A stretch of 40,006 bases of DNA from Lachnospiraceae bacterium (GTDB lineage: Bacteria; Bacillota; Clostridia; Lachnospirales; Lachnospiraceae), in assembly GCA_036570305.1 (NCBI GenBank), contig DATCYL010000014.1:1-40006 (forward strand), written 5' to 3'. Below, piece by piece: positions 7,285 to 32,979 of this stretch (within the stretch, counting starts at the first letter, position 1; every line of letters starts with the position of its first letter). Made by a program: the position numbers and the translations under genes. The notes beneath the pieces are model-generated. The model was not told where the DNA came from, did no database searches, and worked only from the letters and a program-made list of their open reading frames with translations.

Positions 7285-7950
7285 GTGAGAGAGGTAGAAA
7301 ATATTTTAAAGGCATTTCCTTTTTGGGGAGATTTAAGCGAAGCAGAAAAGGAAGACATAAAAAAGTATGCGACTATTCGCATTTTTGAAGAGGGAAATGT
7401 GATATTTGCCAAGGATAGTGAATGCTTAGGTTTGATTTGTCTTATAGAAGGTTCTATCAGAACTTATATGGTCTCTGAAAGTGGAAGGGAAATTACGCTT
7501 TATAGGATGCAGCCAAAGGAGGTGGACCTTTTGTCCGCCTCTTGTGTTATGCAACAGATTACCTTTCATACCCAGATGGTAGCAGAAGAAAAAACAAAAA
7601 TTTTGATTGTTCCGGCAATCTGTATAGCCCGCTTAAAAGAAAAAAATCTGGCGGTTTGTTGTTATGTCTATGAATATTTGAGTAAGCGTTTTTCAGATGT
7701 TATGAAGACTATGGAAAATATTTTATTTACGAGGATAGACAAGAGATTGGCAGACTTTTTGTTGGAAAAGTCAAGAAATCAAAAGAGTAGGGAAATTACT
7801 GTCACGCATGAAGAATTAGCGCAAAATATCAATTCGGCAAGGGAAGTCGTTGCAAGAGTTTTAAAAGGTTTTGAAAAAAGGGGACTGGTCAAGCTAGGGC
7901 GCAAAAAGATAGAACTTTTGGATATAAATGCTTTAAAAAGGTATGTATAA
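7285..7950 (+). CDS. Crp/Fnr-family transcriptional regulator (221 aa, GTG start)
   Basis: The N-terminus is a cNMP-binding-like beta-roll (FEEGNVIFAKDSECLGLICLIEGSIRTY). The C-terminal HTH is THEELAQNINSAREVVARVLKGFEKRGLV. The GTG start at 7285 is preceded by GGGGAA. Confidence 0.85.
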   Translation: MREVENILKAFPFWGDLSEAEKEDIKKYATIRIFEEGNVIFAKDSECLGLICLIEGSIRTYMVSESGREITLYRMQPKEVDLLSASCVMQQITFHTQMVAEEKTKILIVPAICIARLKEKNLAVCCYVYEYLSKRFSDVMKTMENILFTRIDKRLADFLLEKSRNQKSREITVTHEELAQNINSAREVVARVLKGFEKRGLVKLGRKKIELLDINALKRYV

Positions 7951-7980
7951 AAGGTTTGTTTGCGATAATGGCAGGAGTAG

Positions 7981-8010
7981 TTGACAAAACTTAAGAAGAG
8001 AGAATACAAT
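7981..8010 (+). promoter_or_regulatory. Candidate sigma-A promoter of the LacI-family gene
   Basis: TTGACA (7981-7986), an 18-bp spacer, then TACAAT (8005-8010). Confidence 0.5.
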
Positions 8011-8071
8011 AAATTTTAACAGCTTTGCTAAAAATATGATTAAGATAAATAGCTATCCGGGGGGTAGAATA

Positions 8072-9121
8072 ATGGCAACAATTAAGGAAATTGCAAAGGC
8101 TTGTGATGTGTCTATTGCAACCGTTTCTAATATAATAAATAATAAGCCGGGAGCCAGTGAAAAAACTCGTAAACTGGTCATGGAAAAGATGCAGGAAATG
8201 AACTATAAGCCTAATATTGTTGCTAGAAATCTAAAGATGAAAAGTACCCGTAGTATAGGTGTTATTGTGGAGGATATGACTATCTTTAGTATTCCGGACA
8301 TTGTAGATGGAATTACTGATTATTGCGAAAAAAAGAATTATCAAATCCTATTAATTAATCTTCGTTTATTTAAAAAGTACAATGACACTTACTATTATAA
8401 AGAAGACTACTATGGCAAGGTGGAAGAAGAAATCAATGAGCTTTTGGCAAAACAGGTAGACGGGGTGATTTATGTGACGGCACATGAGAGGGTGCTTCAC
8501 TGTATCCCGCAAAATTTGCCGATTCCTGCGGTTATGGCATATGGCTATACAGAAAACCCCAATATACCATCTATTGTTGTTGATGATGAGGATGGTGCGC
8601 ACCAGATCGTAGAATATCTGATAAGGCAGGGGCATAAAAAAATCGGAGTGATTTGTGGCAAAGCGGACAGTATCCACGCACAGGGGCGCTTAAAAGGATA
8701 TCAAAGAGCTCTGTATGAGCACTCTGTTCTTTACAATCCGGAATGGATTTGTCAGGGGGATTGGACCAGAACCAGCGGTTATAAAATGGCAGACAGACTA
8801 TTGGAGCAGGGAGTGACAGCTATCTTTTGCATGAATGATATTATGGCAGGAGGGGTCTATGACCGTATTTTGGAGAGAGGAATGTCTCCGGGACATGATA
8901 TATCGGTTGCCGGATACGATAATAGAGAGCTCTCCGGGTATTATAATCCTCCGTTGTCAACCGTTACATTACCTTTACATGATGTGGGATATAAGGCAAG
9001 TCAGGTTATGGTAAAGATGTTGGAAGAGAAAAAAGAAGAGTCTGTAAAGGAAGATGGTATTTACAAAGTGAATTGCCATCTTTTAGTAAGAGAATCTGTA
9101 AAAAATATCAATGAAAATTAA
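8072..9121 (+). CDS. LacI-family transcriptional regulator (349 aa from the internal ATG)
   Basis: The N-terminal HTH is MATIKEIAKACDVSIATVSNIINNKPGASEKTRKLV, followed by a periplasmic-binding-protein-like sugar-binding core. I prefer ATG 8072 (GGGGGG RBS 7 nt upstream) over the track start at 8036. Confidence 0.9.
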   Translation: MATIKEIAKACDVSIATVSNIINNKPGASEKTRKLVMEKMQEMNYKPNIVARNLKMKSTRSIGVIVEDMTIFSIPDIVDGITDYCEKKNYQILLINLRLFKKYNDTYYYKEDYYGKVEEEINELLAKQVDGVIYVTAHERVLHCIPQNLPIPAVMAYGYTENPNIPSIVVDDEDGAHQIVEYLIRQGHKKIGVICGKADSIHAQGRLKGYQRALYEHSVLYNPEWICQGDWTRTSGYKMADRLLEQGVTAIFCMNDIMAGGVYDRILERGMSPGHDISVAGYDNRELSGYYNPPLSTVTLPLHDVGYKASQVMVKMLEEKKEESVKEDGIYKVNCHLLVRESVKNINEN

Positions 9122-29891: not shown

Positions 29892-29920
29892 TTGAAATTA
29901 GATTTGAAATTTCTTAAAAT
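29892..29920 (+). promoter_or_regulatory. Candidate promoter of the Hsp70 / J-protein pair
   Basis: TTGAAA (29892-29897), a 17-bp spacer, then TAAAAT (29915-29920). It lies within a direct repeat with TTGAAAT at 29892 and again at 29904. Confidence 0.4.
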
Positions 29921-29955
29921 AAAGAAAAATAAATGAAGAATGTGTAGGAGAATAT

Positions 29956-31725
29956 ATGGCAAAAATCGGAATTGACCTGGGAACAACAACCTCGCTGGTT
30001 TCTGTGTATAGGGATGGAAAGGTGGAGCTGATACCTAATAAATTCGGTAATGTGACGACACCAAGTGTGGTTGGAATTGATGAAGACGGAAGTTTGATTG
30101 TGGGTGAGATTGCAAAAGAGCGTTTGATTAGTCATCCGGATAAAACCGTCGGGTCTTTTAAAAGATATATGGGTACAGATAAGACTTTTGTTTTGGGAGA
30201 TAGGAAGTATTCTTCCGAGGAACTTAGTTCTTTTGTGATTTCATCTTTGTTAGAAGATGCAAAAAACTATTTGCAGGAGGAGATTAAAGAGGCAGTCATT
30301 TCTGTTCCGGCTTATTTTCATGACAAGCAGAGAGTGGCGACAAGAAAAGCGGGAGAACTGGCGGGTATCAAGGTCAATCGTCTGATTAATGAGCCAAGTG
30401 CAGCAGCCCTTTTTGCCTATATGGAAGAAGAGGAGGAAAAGCGCTTTTTGATTTTTGACTTCGGTGGCGGAACTTTGGACATTTCCATTGTAGAATGTTT
30501 TGAAAACATGGTGGAAATCCTGGCGGTGGCAGGGGATAACCATCTTGGCGGTGATGATTTTAATCAAGTGATTGCCAAAAGCTTTTTAGAGGAGCATAAA
30601 ATTGCAGGAGATGATTTATCCAAAGAAGATTATGCCGGACTTATAAAGACGGCGGAGTCTATAAAAAGACAATTAAGCGAGCAAGAAGAAGTGTTAATGT
30701 ACTGGAATTATCGGGGGCAGACTTACCAAAGCACCTTTCATAGCCAAAGATTAATCGAGGACGGAGCTGCTTTGTTTGGAAGAATGAAAGGTGTTATTCA
30801 TCATGCTCTAAGAGACGGTCAATTTATGGCAAGGGATATGAATATGATTATTTGTGCCGGAGGCTCCTCAAAGATGCCGGCGGTCAGAGAGTATTTACGT
30901 CACTTGTTTGGGGATGTCAGCCAAAGTACGGCAGATGAGCAGGAGATGATTGCCAGAGGATTGGGAACTGTGCTTGGTATTATGGATCGGGAAGAAAAGG
31001 TGAGAGATTATATTTTGACCGATATTTGCCCATTTACTTTAGGTATTGCTACTTTAAATGAAGCAGATCCTGATAACAGCTATATGACACCGATTATTCC
31101 GAGAAATACAGCTCTTCCAAGCTCCAGAGTAAAAAGGTTTTATACCACTTACGATAGACAAAATCATATTTCTGTACGAATCAGTCAGGGTGAGGATCCT
31201 TATGAAAAGAACAATCTCTTTTTGGGGGAGCTTTCTATACCGGTAAGACCGAGACCGGCAGGGGAAGAGTCTATTGATGTGCGTTTTACCTATGATATAG
31301 ATGGGATATTGGAAGTGGATGTAACGGTGGTATCCAGTCAAACAAGCACAGGTAAGGTTTTTGCCAAAGAAGTTGATAAAAAAGAACTGGGAATAGCCAG
31401 AAAAAATTTGCAGAAATTAAAACACCATCCCAAAGAAGATGCAAAAAATATTTTGTTAAAGGAAAGACTTTTGTCTGCCTATGCTATGTCTATGGGCAAT
31501 ACCAGAGAATTTATTATGCATTTACTCAATCAGTTTGAAGAGACTTTAAACAGCCAGGAAAGCAGGCGTATTCTATTTTATCAAAGATATTTGGAGAGAA
31601 GTCTGGAAGAAATAGAAAAAATAGACCCATTCTATCAGCCGGAGGAGTTTGCGGAAGAAGATTTTGAGGATGAATGGGATGATGATACAGAGGATGATGG
31701 TATAGAGGAAGAAGACTATGAATAA
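29956..31725 (+). CDS. Atypical Hsp70-family chaperone (HscC-like, 589 aa) with a short lid and an acidic tail
   Basis: Actin-fold motifs are IGIDLGTTTS, DFGGGTLDISIV and ICAGGSSKMPAV. The SBD motifs are LTDICPFTLGIA, RNTALPSS and FTYDIDGILEVDV. The C-terminus is EEDFEDEWDDDTEDDGIEEEDYE. Confidence 0.9.
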   Translation: MAKIGIDLGTTTSLVSVYRDGKVELIPNKFGNVTTPSVVGIDEDGSLIVGEIAKERLISHPDKTVGSFKRYMGTDKTFVLGDRKYSSEELSSFVISSLLEDAKNYLQEEIKEAVISVPAYFHDKQRVATRKAGELAGIKVNRLINEPSAAALFAYMEEEEEKRFLIFDFGGGTLDISIVECFENMVEILAVAGDNHLGGDDFNQVIAKSFLEEHKIAGDDLSKEDYAGLIKTAESIKRQLSEQEEVLMYWNYRGQTYQSTFHSQRLIEDGAALFGRMKGVIHHALRDGQFMARDMNMIICAGGSSKMPAVREYLRHLFGDVSQSTADEQEMIARGLGTVLGIMDREEKVRDYILTDICPFTLGIATLNEADPDNSYMTPIIPRNTALPSSRVKRFYTTYDRQNHISVRISQGEDPYEKNNLFLGELSIPVRPRPAGEESIDVRFTYDIDGILEVDVTVVSSQTSTGKVFAKEVDKKELGIARKNLQKLKHHPKEDAKNILLKERLLSAYAMSMGNTREFIMHLLNQFEETLNSQESRRILFYQRYLERSLEEIEKIDPFYQPEEFAEEDFEDEWDDDTEDDGIEEEDYE

Positions 31726-32653
31726 AGAGGAAGCATGCAGGCTTTTGCAAATTAGGCAGGGAGCAGATCAAAGAGAAGTTAAGAGGCAATTTGCAAAGCT
31801 CTCCAGACTTTATCATCCGGAGGAACACCCTAAGGAATACGAAAGGATTTATGAGGCTTACCGATTTTTGCTCGGCAGCTTAAAAGATCCGACTTCTATG
31901 GGGGCGTCTGAGTCTCAAAAATCTGCTTTCTCAAAAGAGCAGGAGAGCTTTTGGGGGGATAGTCAGGCGATATTTGCCGAAGATAAAATAGAAAAGAATA
32001 CCTCAGATTTAAGCTTTGCAAATATAAACTTTGTAAAAGAAGACGTAGAAGAAAAAGAGCCGGATGCAAAGATAGATTTTAGGATTTTAGAAGATAGGAA
32101 AGAGAGCGAAAATGATGAAAATAAACAAGCTTCACCTTACCGGACTCTTTTTGAGAATATAGAAGAAAAGCACGAAGAAAGAAAAGAAAAAAATGCCTTT
32201 TCTTTTGATAATATAAAAGAGGTGGACTTACAAAGAAGTAGGGAGGAAATGGAAAAAGAAGAAAGAAAAGAAAAAAGGCAGCTATCCTTTAAAAAGGGAC
32301 CTGTGGTATTTTTCTTTCTTGTAAATGTTTTAGGACTTCTTATCAATAGTGACAATCATTTTTCTTTGCTGGAATGGTTGGGACTTTTCTTTGGGCTGTC
32401 TATGTTGGCATTTTTGCTCTTGTTTGTGTTTGCTTACCTAAGACGCAAGTTTTCTGCCTGGGGCAGTGTTTTTTGTATGTCTTTTCTTATGTGTCTTGCC
32501 TTGTTTATCATTTATATGCAAATTATGGATAGGGTGGGAGAAAAAGTAGAGGAAGGACTTGCTGTGATAATTTTTCTCCTCCTTATAGTAAGTATTTTCT
32601 CAGGACTGATTGCCCTCTTTCGAGCACTTTTAAGGAGGAGAAAAAGAGGTTAG
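31718..32653 (+). CDS. Membrane-anchored J-domain-like protein (311 aa) with HPE in place of HPD, a K/E-rich linker and four C-terminal TM helices
   Basis: It overlaps the Hsp70 stop by 8 nt. The J-like helices II/III are EVKRQFAKLSRLYHPEEHPKEYERIYEAYRFL. The C-terminal hydrophobic segments are VVFFFLVNVLGLLI, LGLFFGLSMLAFLLLFVFAYL, VFCMSFLMCLALFIIYMQI and LAVIIFLLLIVSIFSGLIALF. Confidence 0.8.
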   Translation: MNKEEACRLLQIRQGADQREVKRQFAKLSRLYHPEEHPKEYERIYEAYRFLLGSLKDPTSMGASESQKSAFSKEQESFWGDSQAIFAEDKIEKNTSDLSFANINFVKEDVEEKEPDAKIDFRILEDRKESENDENKQASPYRTLFENIEEKHEERKEKNAFSFDNIKEVDLQRSREEMEKEERKEKRQLSFKKGPVVFFFLVNVLGLLINSDNHFSLLEWLGLFFGLSMLAFLLLFVFAYLRRKFSAWGSVFCMSFLMCLALFIIYMQIMDRVGEKVEEGLAVIIFLLLIVSIFSGLIALFRALLRRRKRG

Positions 32654-32979
32654 GACAAGAGTGTTTTGATTAGATTTTGCTTTTCTTCGGTAGATAAGCT
32701 GTGTCCGTTACGAGCAATTAAAGTTTGCAGTGTTTTATAATCCACTTCTGTGTTTGGAAGTGGATTTTTTTGTTTTAAAGATTTTCGTCCCATAAGGGTA
32801 TCCATATCCACCTGAAAATAATCGGCAATGATTCCCAAAGTATGGATATCCGGCTCTCTTTCCCCTCGTTCATACATGCTGATAGCACTTCGGGAAATCT
32901 TGAGAGCTAATGCTAAATCTGCTTGCGAAATCTGATTGTCGATGCGAAGTTGCTTGAATATTTGAGCAAAATTATTCAT
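32650..32979 (-). CDS. XRE-family helix-turn-helix transcriptional regulator (109 aa)
   Basis: An AGGAG RBS is present. The HTH_3 motif is IFKQLRIDNQISQADLALALKISRSAISMYERGEREPDIHTLGIIADYFQV. Confidence 0.9.
   Translation of the reverse strand: MNNFAQIFKQLRIDNQISQADLALALKISRSAISMYERGEREPDIHTLGIIADYFQVDMDTLMGRKSLKQKNPLPNTEVDYKTLQTLIARNGHSLSTEEKQNLIKTLLS

What the first reader, a model, noticed from the sequence alone, without database searches (positions are those of the whole stretch)
29956..32653. An atypical Hsp70 is translationally coupled to a four-TM J-like protein whose catalytic HPD is HPE
A 589-aa Hsp70 paralogue has an intact ATPase and beta-sandwich motifs, a truncated lid and an extremely acidic tail ending EEEDYE. 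Its stop overlaps by 8 nt the start of a 311-aa protein with three parts: (i) a J-like helix II/III pair, (ii) a K/E-rich charged linker and (iii) four C-terminal transmembrane helices.

The invariant HPD tripeptide that J-domains use to trigger Hsp70 ATP hydrolysis reads H-P-E here (LYHPEEHPKEY, checked in the DNA as cat ccg gag).

The arrangement recalls E. coli HscC with its membrane-anchored DjlB/DjlC partners, whose function is still poorly understood. However, the HPE variant and the polytopic anchor are distinctive. The pair sits between a giant MacB-type transporter and the XRE/RHS toxin locus. There is no terminator after the transporter gene, although a candidate promoter lies at 29892-29920. 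It may be a dedicated membrane-proximal chaperone module for envelope or secretion functions, or part of a stress or conflict system.
Basis: partly seen in the sequence, partly recalled or inferred. Interest (0 to 1): 0.62.

Follow-up and report, generated by a model that had tools for sequence, protein, structure and literature searches.

The report
HscC-type Hsp70 with membrane J-protein
The two overlapping genes are a gut Firmicute's version of the known, poorly understood HscC chaperone and its DjlB/DjlC-type helper, and the "odd" His-Pro-Glu motif is that helper family's normal, published signature.

Summary
Both genes exist exactly as described: a 589-aa Hsp70 (29956-31725) and a 311-aa protein (31718-32653) that overlap by 8 nt. 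The second protein has a J-domain, a disordered charged linker and four TM helices, and reads H-P-E at codons 33-35.

The interpretation needs correcting. The Hsp70 is a true HscC-type paralogue. It is 37% identical to E. coli HscC, shares all six of HscC's larger indels relative to DnaK, and falls in a 100/100-supported HscC clade.

HPE is not distinctive. E. coli DjlB and DjlC read HPETDPQGF with the same short helix II-III loop. The literature states that HPE is the tolerated variant used with HscC. Of 133 family representatives with a J region, 128 carry HPE.

The Hsp70 + J-TM pairing is conserved: 7 of 8 close loci and all sufficiently complete distant HscC loci. Linkage to the MacB-type transporter or the RHS locus is not conserved, and no defence-system model matches.

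Three things differ from E. coli. The anchor is a four-helix bundle rather than a tail anchor. There is no DUF1266 companion. The Hsp70 has a long acidic-aromatic tail.

This J-4TM subfamily is common in gut Clostridia and has not been studied experimentally. Verdict: an ordinary new member of a known kind.

The parts
29892..29920 (+). Promoter-like site (TTGAAA-17-TAAAAT) upstream of the Hsp70 gene
   Evidence: The consensus scan scores it 10/12. Such matches are not enriched over shuffles, so this is only a candidate.
29946..29950 (+). Shine-Dalgarno AGGAG, 5 nt before the Hsp70 ATG
   Evidence: Read directly from the sequence.
29956..31725 (+). HscC-type Hsp70, 589 aa. NBD about aa 1-345; linker DYILTD at 351-356; SBD-beta with a 6-aa L1,2 insertion; shortened lid; acidic-aromatic tail at aa ~556-589.
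   Evidence: PF00012 E 3.5e-107. 37% identity to E. coli HscC over 538 aa with 7 gaps. All HscC indels are shared. It lies inside the HscC clade with 100/100 support.
31621..31722 (+). Acidic-aromatic C-terminal tail of the Hsp70 (DPFYQPEEFAEEDFEDEWDDDTEDDGIEEEDYE)
   Evidence: Seen in the alignment. DPF followed by an acidic tail with W/F/Y is shared by the Firmicute subclade and is longer than the E. coli HscC tail.
31705..31709 (+). Shine-Dalgarno GAGGA for the J gene, lying inside the Hsp70 coding sequence 8 nt before the ATG
   Evidence: Read directly from the sequence. This fits translational coupling across the 8-nt overlap.
31718..32653 (+). DjlB/DjlC-type J-domain protein with a four-helix membrane anchor, 311 aa
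   Evidence: PF00226 27.1 bits. AF2 model. Foldseek J-domain hits. Family profile search.
31718..31885 (+). J-domain (aa 1-56: helix I, basic helix II, HPE loop, helix III; no helix IV predicted)
   Evidence: pLDDT 92-96. The Pfam match covers profile positions 5-53 of 63.
31814..31840 (+). Family signature HPEEHPKEY (xPE-xx-P-xx-[FY]); the HPE codons CAT CCG GAG are at 31814-31822
31886..32287 (+). Disordered K/E-rich linker (aa 57-190) with short [FY]xF[DE]x[VAI]-like motifs (e.g. AFSFDNI at aa 160-166)
   Evidence: pLDDT below 50 over aa 59-143. Across 101 family members the motif occurs 65 times against 16 expected from shuffles (post hoc).
32288..32635 (+). Four transmembrane helices (aa ~194-210, 217-244, 247-272, 277-309). 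The basic segments KEKRQLSFKK, RRKFS and RRRKRG face the cytoplasm.
   Evidence: Hydropathy. AF2 helices with pLDDT about 70-83. Only sub-threshold Pfam matches.
32739..32776 (+). Terminator-like hairpin with a T-run, 86 nt past the J gene stop and inside the 3' part of the convergent XRE ORF
   Evidence: 12-bp stem followed by TTTTTGTTTT.

Best explanation
The two genes form a two-gene operon. It encodes an HscC-type specialised Hsp70 and its dedicated DjlB/DjlC-type J-domain co-chaperone.

The J-protein sits in the cytoplasmic membrane through a four-helix bundle, with both termini in the cytoplasm. A long flexible charged linker projects its J-domain into the cytoplasm. The J-domain carries the family's normal HPE loop. 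It docks on the partner Hsp70 and triggers ATP hydrolysis, so that the Hsp70 clamps onto client segments at the membrane surface.

Nucleotide exchange is probably spontaneous, because the GrpE-signature loop is deleted as it is in HscC.

Shown here:
- gene structure and the overlap;
- HscC-clade membership of the Hsp70;
- the J fold with the HPE signature;
- the four hydrophobic helices;
- the conserved gene pairing.

Inferred from E. coli work (Kluck 2002, as reviewed in PMC8215388 and PMC13254874):
- HPE J-domains stimulate HscC and not DnaK;
- the system acts at the membrane.

The clients are unknown. Basic cytosolic segments of membrane proteins are the best guess.
For: Hsp70 sequence:
- It is 37% identical to E. 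coli HscC, against 30% to DnaK and 27% to HscA.
- Relative to DnaK it shares deletions at DnaK 79-102, 209-212, 244-247, 286-291 and 537-549, and the L1,2 insertion after residue 404, exactly as E. coli HscC does.
- In a maximum-likelihood tree it lies in a 100/100 clade with E. coli, Enterobacter, Pseudomonas, Gilliamella and other Firmicute HscC-type proteins, apart from DnaK and HscA.
- PGAP names 41%-identical plasmid homologues 'molecular chaperone HscC'.

J-domain:
- PF00226 gives 27.1 bits.
- The AF2 J fold has pLDDT above 90, and Foldseek hits are J-domains.
- The motif HPEEHPKEY matches E. coli DjlC and DjlB, HPETDPQGF, with identical spacing.
- HPE occurs in 128 of 133 representatives that have a J region.

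Gene pairing:
- A J-TM gene follows the Hsp70 gene, overlapping or abutting it, in 7 of 8 close loci.
- Every sufficiently complete distant HscC-type locus has an xP[ED]xxPxx[FY] J-protein alongside.

Literature:
- DjlC stimulates HscC, whereas DnaJ, CbpA and HscB do not. DjlB and DjlC are membrane-anchored (PMC8215388).
- HPE is 'the only replacement tolerated', found in DjlB and DjlC with HscC (PMC13254874; PMC10410713).
Against: - No biochemical or expression data exist for this protein pair. The RNA and read look-ups returned nothing.
- The anchor is polytopic, not a tail anchor.
- The anchor shows no detectable homology to the polytopic anchor of the Enterobacter-type partner (hhalign probability below 1%).
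- The DUF1266 companion seen in E. coli and B. mycoides is absent from this locus.
- The window subclade sits on a long stem (0.99 changes per column), so its function may have diverged.
- The J-domain falls 0.7 bits short of Pfam's cut-off and appears to lack helix IV.
Confidence: 0.88

Rival explanations
1. The pair is a dedicated assembly or quality-control chaperone for the adjacent giant MacB/FtsX-type ABC transporter. It would be co-transcribed with that gene, since there is no terminator in the 80-bp gap.
For: - The genes are adjacent on the same strand, and no terminator-like site lies between 29875 and 29956.
- Mayer's review speculates that efflux pumps could be HscC clients.
- The same arrangement is seen in one other assembly.
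Against: - That other assembly is a near-identical strain (99% identical J-protein), so it is not independent.
- In seven other close loci the upstream genes differ: hydrolase, permease, FMN reductase, MFS, PdxT and mobile-element genes. No ABC/FtsX gene is among them.
- The gap contains its own promoter-like site and a strong SD.
Confidence: 0.05
2. The pair is part of a conflict system, such as anti-phage defence or support or immunity for the neighbouring RHS polymorphic toxin. The membrane J-protein would act as sensor or effector.
For: Conflict-related neighbours appear in some loci:
- XRE plus RHS toxin here;
- MobC/NikA, GmrSD and HNH fragments in S. suis;
- SMI1/KNR4 and PoNi-like immunity genes beside HscC-J-DUF1266 on a B. 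mycoides plasmid.

A 43%-identical HscC-type gene also lies in a faecal 'Bacteriophage sp.' record.
Against: - No PADLOC model matches the Hsp70. The J-protein has only a sub-threshold hit (E 0.0039, no significant stretch).
- Most loci sit among housekeeping genes such as ilvC, gyrB, rpsT, clpB/radA and acc.
- GC content is uniform across the window.
- The RHS locus has its own repressor and promoter and is transcribed separately from the convergent XRE gene (notes e1-4351632 and e1-4351629).
Confidence: 0.05
3. The HPE protein is a J-like pseudo-co-chaperone. It would bind or tether the Hsp70 without stimulating its ATPase, as Pam16/Tim16-type J-like proteins do.
For: - The Pfam score is just below the cut-off.
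- HPD is altered and helix IV is not predicted.
- HPD mutants such as HPN and QPD are inactive with canonical Hsp70s.
Against: - E. coli DjlC has the same HPE loop and an even lower Pfam score (19.3 bits), yet is reported to stimulate HscC.
- H, P and E are under strong purifying selection across the family (128/133).
- The basic helix II and the Hsp70 residues R167 and N170 are retained.
Confidence: 0.04

Closest known systems
E. coli HscC (Hsc62, YbeW) with its co-chaperones DjlC (YbeV) and DjlB (YbeS)
   Same: - The Hsp70 belongs to the same clade and has the same indel pattern.
- The J-domain has HPE and the short xPExxPxx[FY] loop.
- The partner genes are adjacent.
- The J-protein is membrane-anchored with its J-domain in the cytoplasm.
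- The GrpE-signature loop is deleted.
   Different: - E. coli DjlB and DjlC are about 480 aa, with a large helical middle region and a single C-terminal tail anchor. Here a disordered K/E linker leads to four TM helices.
- E. coli djlB and djlC are each preceded by a DUF1266 gene and flanked by Sel1-repeat genes, and hscC is convergent to djlC. Here the Hsp70 gene comes first and overlaps the J gene, and there is no DUF1266 or Sel1 gene.
- The Hsp70 tail here is much longer and more acidic.
HscC + J-domain protein + DUF1266 cassette of Bacillus mycoides plasmids (PGAP-annotated)
   Same: - It is a Firmicute example.
- The HscC gene comes first and overlaps the J gene.
- The J-protein reads HPEDDPEGY.
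- The Hsp70 is 41% identical to the window protein.
   Different: - The J-protein is 432 aa with one C-terminal TM helix.
- It is followed by a DUF1266 gene.
- It belongs to a different subclade from the window protein.
Enterobacter/Rouxiella HscC-like + polytopic J-protein
   Same: - The Hsp70 is 40% identical.
- The J gene lies immediately downstream.
- The J-protein ends in 4-5 TM helices.
   Different: - The motif is RPD, not HPE.
- The TM domain has no detectable similarity to the Firmicute four-helix domain.
DjlA (DnaK co-chaperone of E. coli)
   Same: It is a membrane-anchored class C J-protein that recruits an Hsp70 to the inner membrane.
   Different: - DjlA has an N-terminal TM helix and a C-terminal J-domain with canonical HPD, and it works with DnaK.
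- The NCBIfam DjlA model gives only E 0.016 here.

Membership tests
HscC-type Hsp70 | Groups with HscC rather than with DnaK or HscA in a phylogeny | tested here: met
   It falls in a 100/100-supported clade of 20 sequences that includes E. coli HscC. DnaK and HscA lie in the sister clade. Identity is 37% to HscC, 30% to DnaK and 27% to HscA.
HscC-type Hsp70 | Characteristic indels (PMC8215388): NBD lobe I deletion (DnaK ~76-101), loss of the GrpE-signature loop, a small deletion near the J-binding site (D211), a 4-8 aa insertion in L1,2 of SBD-beta, and a deletion in lid helix B | tested here: met
   Deletions at DnaK 79-102, 286-291, 209-212 and 537-549, plus a 6-aa insertion after residue 404. 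All sit at the same positions as in E. coli HscC.
HscC-type Hsp70 | Intact ATPase catalytic residues and allosteric linker | tested here: met
   D8, K70, E171, D194, T199, D201, R167 and N170 are conserved. The linker reads YILTD, against VILTD in HscC.
HscC-type Hsp70 | [quoted passage not shown] | not testable with these tools
   This needs purified proteins. It is known only for E. coli.
DjlB/DjlC-type J-domain proteins | J-domain fold | tested here: met
   PF00226 E 4.5e-6 at 27.1 bits, against a 27.8-bit cut-off. E. coli DjlC and DjlB score 19.3 and 21.1 bits. AF2 pLDDT is 92-96. Foldseek hits are J-domains.
DjlB/DjlC-type J-domain proteins | HPE in place of HPD, with a shortened helix II-III loop (xPE-xx-P-xx-[FY]) | tested here: met
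   The window reads HPEEHPKEY and DjlC/DjlB read HPETDPQGF. 128 of 133 representatives carry HPE. DnaJ proteins found next to DnaK genes all have HPD with a longer loop.
DjlB/DjlC-type J-domain proteins | Encoded next to an HscC-type Hsp70 gene | tested here: met
   There is an 8-nt overlap here. The pairing is seen in 7 of 8 close loci and in the distant HscC loci.
DjlB/DjlC-type J-domain proteins | C-terminal membrane anchor (a tail anchor in E. coli) | tested here: inconclusive
   The protein is membrane-anchored, but by four predicted helices rather than one tail anchor. Insertion into the membrane has not been shown experimentally.
DjlB/DjlC-type J-domain proteins | Large helical middle domain and an adjacent DUF1266 companion gene, as in E. 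coli and B. mycoides | tested here: not met
   The linker is disordered and has no Pfam domain. The neighbouring genes are a MacB-type ABC transporter and an XRE regulator. This feature is not universal in the wider family.
Known anti-phage defence systems (PADLOC) | Match to a defence-system protein model | tested here: not met
   The Hsp70 has no hit. The J-protein has only PDC-M39A at E 0.0039 with no significant stretch.

The most novel reading that the evidence does not exclude
The Firmicute HscC-type plus J-4TM pair may be a self-contained two-component membrane-surface chaperone that needs no DUF1266 adaptor. The conserved [FY]xF[DE]x[VA] motifs in the J-protein's disordered linker, and its basic juxtamembrane segments, would dock the partner's substrate-binding domain or its unusually long acidic-aromatic tail. 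That docking would pre-position or auto-regulate the Hsp70, much as the G/F-region and EEVD-tail regulate class B J-proteins. The four-helix bundle would itself recognise membrane-protein clients.
Probability: 0.12. Interest if true: 0.5.

Novelty: new member of a known kind. Interest (0 to 1): 0.25.

Why it matters
HscC is the least understood of the three bacterial Hsp70 types, and its clients and purpose are unknown. This locus shows that gut Clostridia carry a very common, stripped-down version: the Hsp70 plus an HPE J-protein with a four-helix anchor, and no DUF1266 or Sel1 genes. That version could be a simpler model for asking what HscC systems do at the membrane. The HPE motif itself raises no new question, because it is already the recognised signature of HscC's co-chaperones.

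Tried and rejected
- Word-indexed homologue searches with the J-protein, both whole and restricted to residues 1-58, found only a 99%-identical copy. The low-complexity linker swamps the word index. The exhaustive profile search worked instead.
- tblastn of the J-protein against plasmids found no match.
- The search for related loci with the Hsp70 alignment used generic Hsp70 patterns, so it returned mostly DnaK loci. These were useful only as HPD controls.
- The RNA and read evidence for co-transcription failed.
- A literature search for 'HscC' alone returned carcinoma papers. Kluck 2002 is not held in the library, so it is cited only through reviews.
- The hypothesis that the Firmicute 4-TM anchor is homologous to the Enterobacter-type polytopic anchor was rejected (hhalign probability 0.65%).
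- Weak Pfam matches of the TM region to MerC, Bax1-I and holin models are all far below their cut-offs. I treated them as hydrophobic noise.
- Horizontal acquisition was not supported, because GC is flat at 0.34-0.41 across the window.
I therefore could not check the genome's own DnaK/DnaJ/GrpE genes or look for a DUF1266 gene elsewhere.
Full report
**Observation**

The window holds two same-strand ORFs exactly where reported. One is a 589-aa protein at 29956-31725. The other is a 311-aa protein at 31718-32653. The second ATG lies 8 nt before the first stop (ATGAATAA).

Each start has a good Shine-Dalgarno: AGGAG at 29946-29950 and GAGGA at 31705-31709. The tripeptide H-P-E is encoded by CAT CCG GAG at 31814-31822, which is codons 33-35.

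**The Hsp70**

It matches Pfam HSP70 at E 3.5e-107. It falls far below the NCBIfam cut-offs for DnaK and HscA, so it is neither.

Against E. coli K-12 HscC it is 37% identical over 538 residues with only 7 gaps. Against DnaK it is 30% identical and against HscA 27%.

Relative to DnaK it has five deletions, at DnaK residues 79-102, 209-212, 244-247, 286-291 and 537-549. It also has a 6-residue insertion after residue 404, in loop L1,2 of the beta-sandwich. E. coli HscC has indels at exactly these positions. They correspond to the features Mayer's review lists as typical of HscC: the lobe-I deletion, the absent GrpE signature, the deletion near the J-binding site, the L1,2 insertion and the helix-B deletion (PMC8215388).

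Catalytic residues and the J-contact residues R167 and N170 are intact.

In a maximum-likelihood tree of 37 Hsp70s the protein lies in a 100/100-supported clade. That clade also holds E. coli HscC and HscC-type proteins of Enterobacter, Rouxiella, Pseudomonas, Gilliamella, Paenibacillus, Pseudobacteroides and Lachnospiraceae. It is separate from all DnaK sequences and from HscA. Within it, the window protein and eight 51-60% identical relatives form their own 100/100 subclade on a long stem.

Thousands of homologues exist in gut Clostridia metagenomes. Named examples come from Eubacterium, Tyzzerella, Dorea (named 'molecular chaperone HscC') and Streptococcus suis.

The acidic tail, DPF followed by about 30 acidic and aromatic residues, is a trait of the Firmicute subclade and is longer than E. 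coli's.

**The J-protein**

Residues 9-51 match PF00226 at 27.1 bits (E 4.5e-6), which is 0.7 bits under the gathering score. This borderline score is typical of the family. E. coli DjlC is reported to stimulate HscC, yet it scores 19.3 bits and DjlB scores 21.1 bits.

AlphaFold2, run on a 7-sequence alignment, models residues 1-55 at pLDDT 92-96 as helix I, helix II, a loop and helix III. Residues 59-143 are disordered. Four long helices follow at 194-210, 217-244, 247-272 and 277-309.

Foldseek against the PDB returns almost only J-domains, with probability 1.00 and rmsd 1.3-3 A over 50-60 residues. The E-values are weak because the domain is small.

Hydropathy analysis gives the same four TM segments. 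The basic segments before TM1, between TM2 and TM3, and at the C-terminus (RRRKRG) fit an N-in/C-in topology by the positive-inside rule. That topology is an inference.

**HPE is the family's rule, not an oddity**

E. coli K-12 DjlC reads CHPETDPQGF and DjlB reads FHPETDPQGF. The spacing is the same as in the window's YHPEEHPKEY, with five residues between the Glu and the aromatic residue that begins helix III. In DnaJ that gap is eleven residues.

Seven Firmicute partner proteins taken from loci of Hsp70 homologues all read HPEExPxx[FY].

I searched a profile of these proteins against 1.84 billion representatives. It found 802 clusters at E<=1e-10. Of the best 149, 133 include the J region. 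Among those, 128 carry HPE, 3 NPE, 1 RPD and 1 HPD. One of the 128 was scored by eye, after the pattern matched a nearby PPG.

In more distant HscC-type loci the adjacent J-proteins read as follows:
- HPE in Paenibacillus, Pseudobacteroides, Gilliamella, Pseudomonas and a B. mycoides plasmid;
- NPE in Diplocloster;
- RPD in Enterobacter and Rouxiella.

The roughly 50 DnaJ genes found beside DnaK genes in the same scan all carry HPD with the long loop.

The literature already says this:
- Malinverni et al. counted about 2,900 HPE J-domains, about 1,700 of them prokaryotic, 'such as DjlB and DjlC' (PMC10410713).
- A 2026 review states that HPE is 'the only replacement tolerated', found in DjlB and DjlC, which work with HscC (PMC13254874).

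**Linkage and context**

In 7 of 8 loci of close Hsp70 homologues, a J-TM gene follows the Hsp70 gene directly. The junctions are overlaps of 13-20 nt, or gaps of 2, 12 or 135 nt. In the eighth locus an IS91-type transposase sits in that place and no J remnant is found.

The flanking genes differ everywhere: hydrolases, permeases, ilvC, gyrB, clpB/radA, acc genes, and mobile-element genes in S. suis. No MacB/FtsX gene recurs. The only exception is a near-identical strain (99% identical J-protein), which has the same synteny as the window.

PADLOC has no model for the Hsp70 and only a sub-threshold match for the J-protein. GC content is uniform across the window. The suggested ties to the transporter, the RHS toxin or a defence role therefore have no comparative support.

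The promoter-like site at 29892-29920 is real as a pattern but is not above chance. A terminator-like hairpin at 32739-32766 probably ends the operon. It lies inside the 3' part of the convergent XRE ORF.

**What differs from the E. coli paradigm**

Partner architectures in the HscC clade are varied:
- tail-anchored with a helical middle domain (E. coli, and B. mycoides with one TM);
- TPR-rich and 880-1104 aa (Paenibacillus, Diplocloster);
- polytopic with RPD (Enterobacter);
- the J-linker-4TM type seen here.

The Firmicute four-helix domain has no Pfam family. It shows no detectable similarity to the Enterobacter-type anchor (hhalign probability 0.65%). Membrane anchoring therefore looks like a recurrent, interchangeable solution.

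The DUF1266 gene that accompanies djlB and djlC in E. coli, and the B. mycoides cassette, is not adjacent here. Earlier notes of this scan proposed it as a constant third component in gammaproteobacteria.

**Mechanism**

This part is inferred. The four-helix bundle fixes the co-chaperone in the membrane. The roughly 130-residue flexible linker lets the HPE J-domain reach an ATP-bound partner Hsp70 and trigger hydrolysis at the membrane surface. Exchange needs no GrpE.

E. coli HscC prefers positively charged peptides, so basic cytosolic segments of membrane proteins are the most plausible clients. The J-protein's own basic juxtamembrane segments may be among them. None of this has been tested for this pair.

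**Verdict**

It is wrong on the distinctiveness of HPE and unsupported on the contextual roles. This is a new member of a known, under-studied chaperone system. It represents a common but uncharacterised Firmicute sub-architecture.

Noticed in passing
window 31886-32287 (J-protein aa 57-190), and family representatives P0125-P0273: The otherwise disordered K/E-rich linker carries a recurring short motif [FY]-x-F-[DE]-x-[VAI]. The commonest form is YDF[DE]xV, and the window has AFSFDNI at aa 160-166. Across 101 family members it occurs 65 times against 16 expected from linker shuffles. The pattern is post hoc. It might be a docking or pseudo-substrate site for the Hsp70.
   Followed up: partly
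L029 (2479-5534) and L082 (3501-6598): A separate, strongly supported Hsp70 clade in Lachnospiraceae and Oscillospiraceae sits nearer to DnaK than to HscC. It is followed by roughly 465-aa J-proteins with no TM helix. The His of their motif is replaced (YSPESEPEKF, YPPEKDPEKF), but the Pro-Glu and the short loop are kept.
   Followed up: partly
L001-L003 (about 7680-9010): The J-protein encoded directly after the HscC-type gene in Enterobacter and Rouxiella reads RPD (RRPDKDPKGF) instead of HPE or HPD. It ends in 4-5 TM helices.
   Followed up: partly
L012 6797-8400: In one Dorea-like contig the position of the J-TM gene, immediately after the Hsp70 gene, is taken by an IS91-family (Y2_Tnp) transposase gene. 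No J-domain remnant is detectable.
   Followed up: partly
window 32739-32776: The only terminator-like hairpin downstream of the J gene has a 12-bp stem and a T-run on the + strand. It lies inside the 3' coding part of the convergent XRE gene (32650-32979, - strand), whose stop codon overlaps the J gene's stop.
   Followed up: no
phage record MT835719.1, 7014-8639 (hit H1): An unannotated 'Bacteriophage sp.' contig from human faeces encodes an HscC-type Hsp70 that is 43% identical over 92% of the query. It is closer than any DnaK-type phage hit.
   Followed up: no
L021 5195-7837 and L023 71-3385: In Paenibacillus sp. GM2 and Diplocloster modestus, the J-proteins beside HscC-type genes are 880 and 1104 aa and packed with TPR repeats. 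This recalls the Sel1 (TPR-like) genes of the E. coli hscC locus.
   Followed up: no
L098 (B. mycoides plasmid p334) 1-8700: An HscC / J-domain / DUF1266 cassette on a large Bacillus plasmid lies a few kb from SMI1/KNR4 and PoNi-like polymorphic-toxin immunity genes. The window's pair likewise lies next to an RHS toxin locus. This is probably coincidence.
   Followed up: no
L006 1857-2753, L007 2730-4028, L013 3654-4943: An alpha/beta-hydrolase (Abhydrolase_1) gene lies immediately upstream of the Hsp70 gene in 3 of 8 close loci, though on the opposite strand in L006. It is absent from the window.
   Followed up: no
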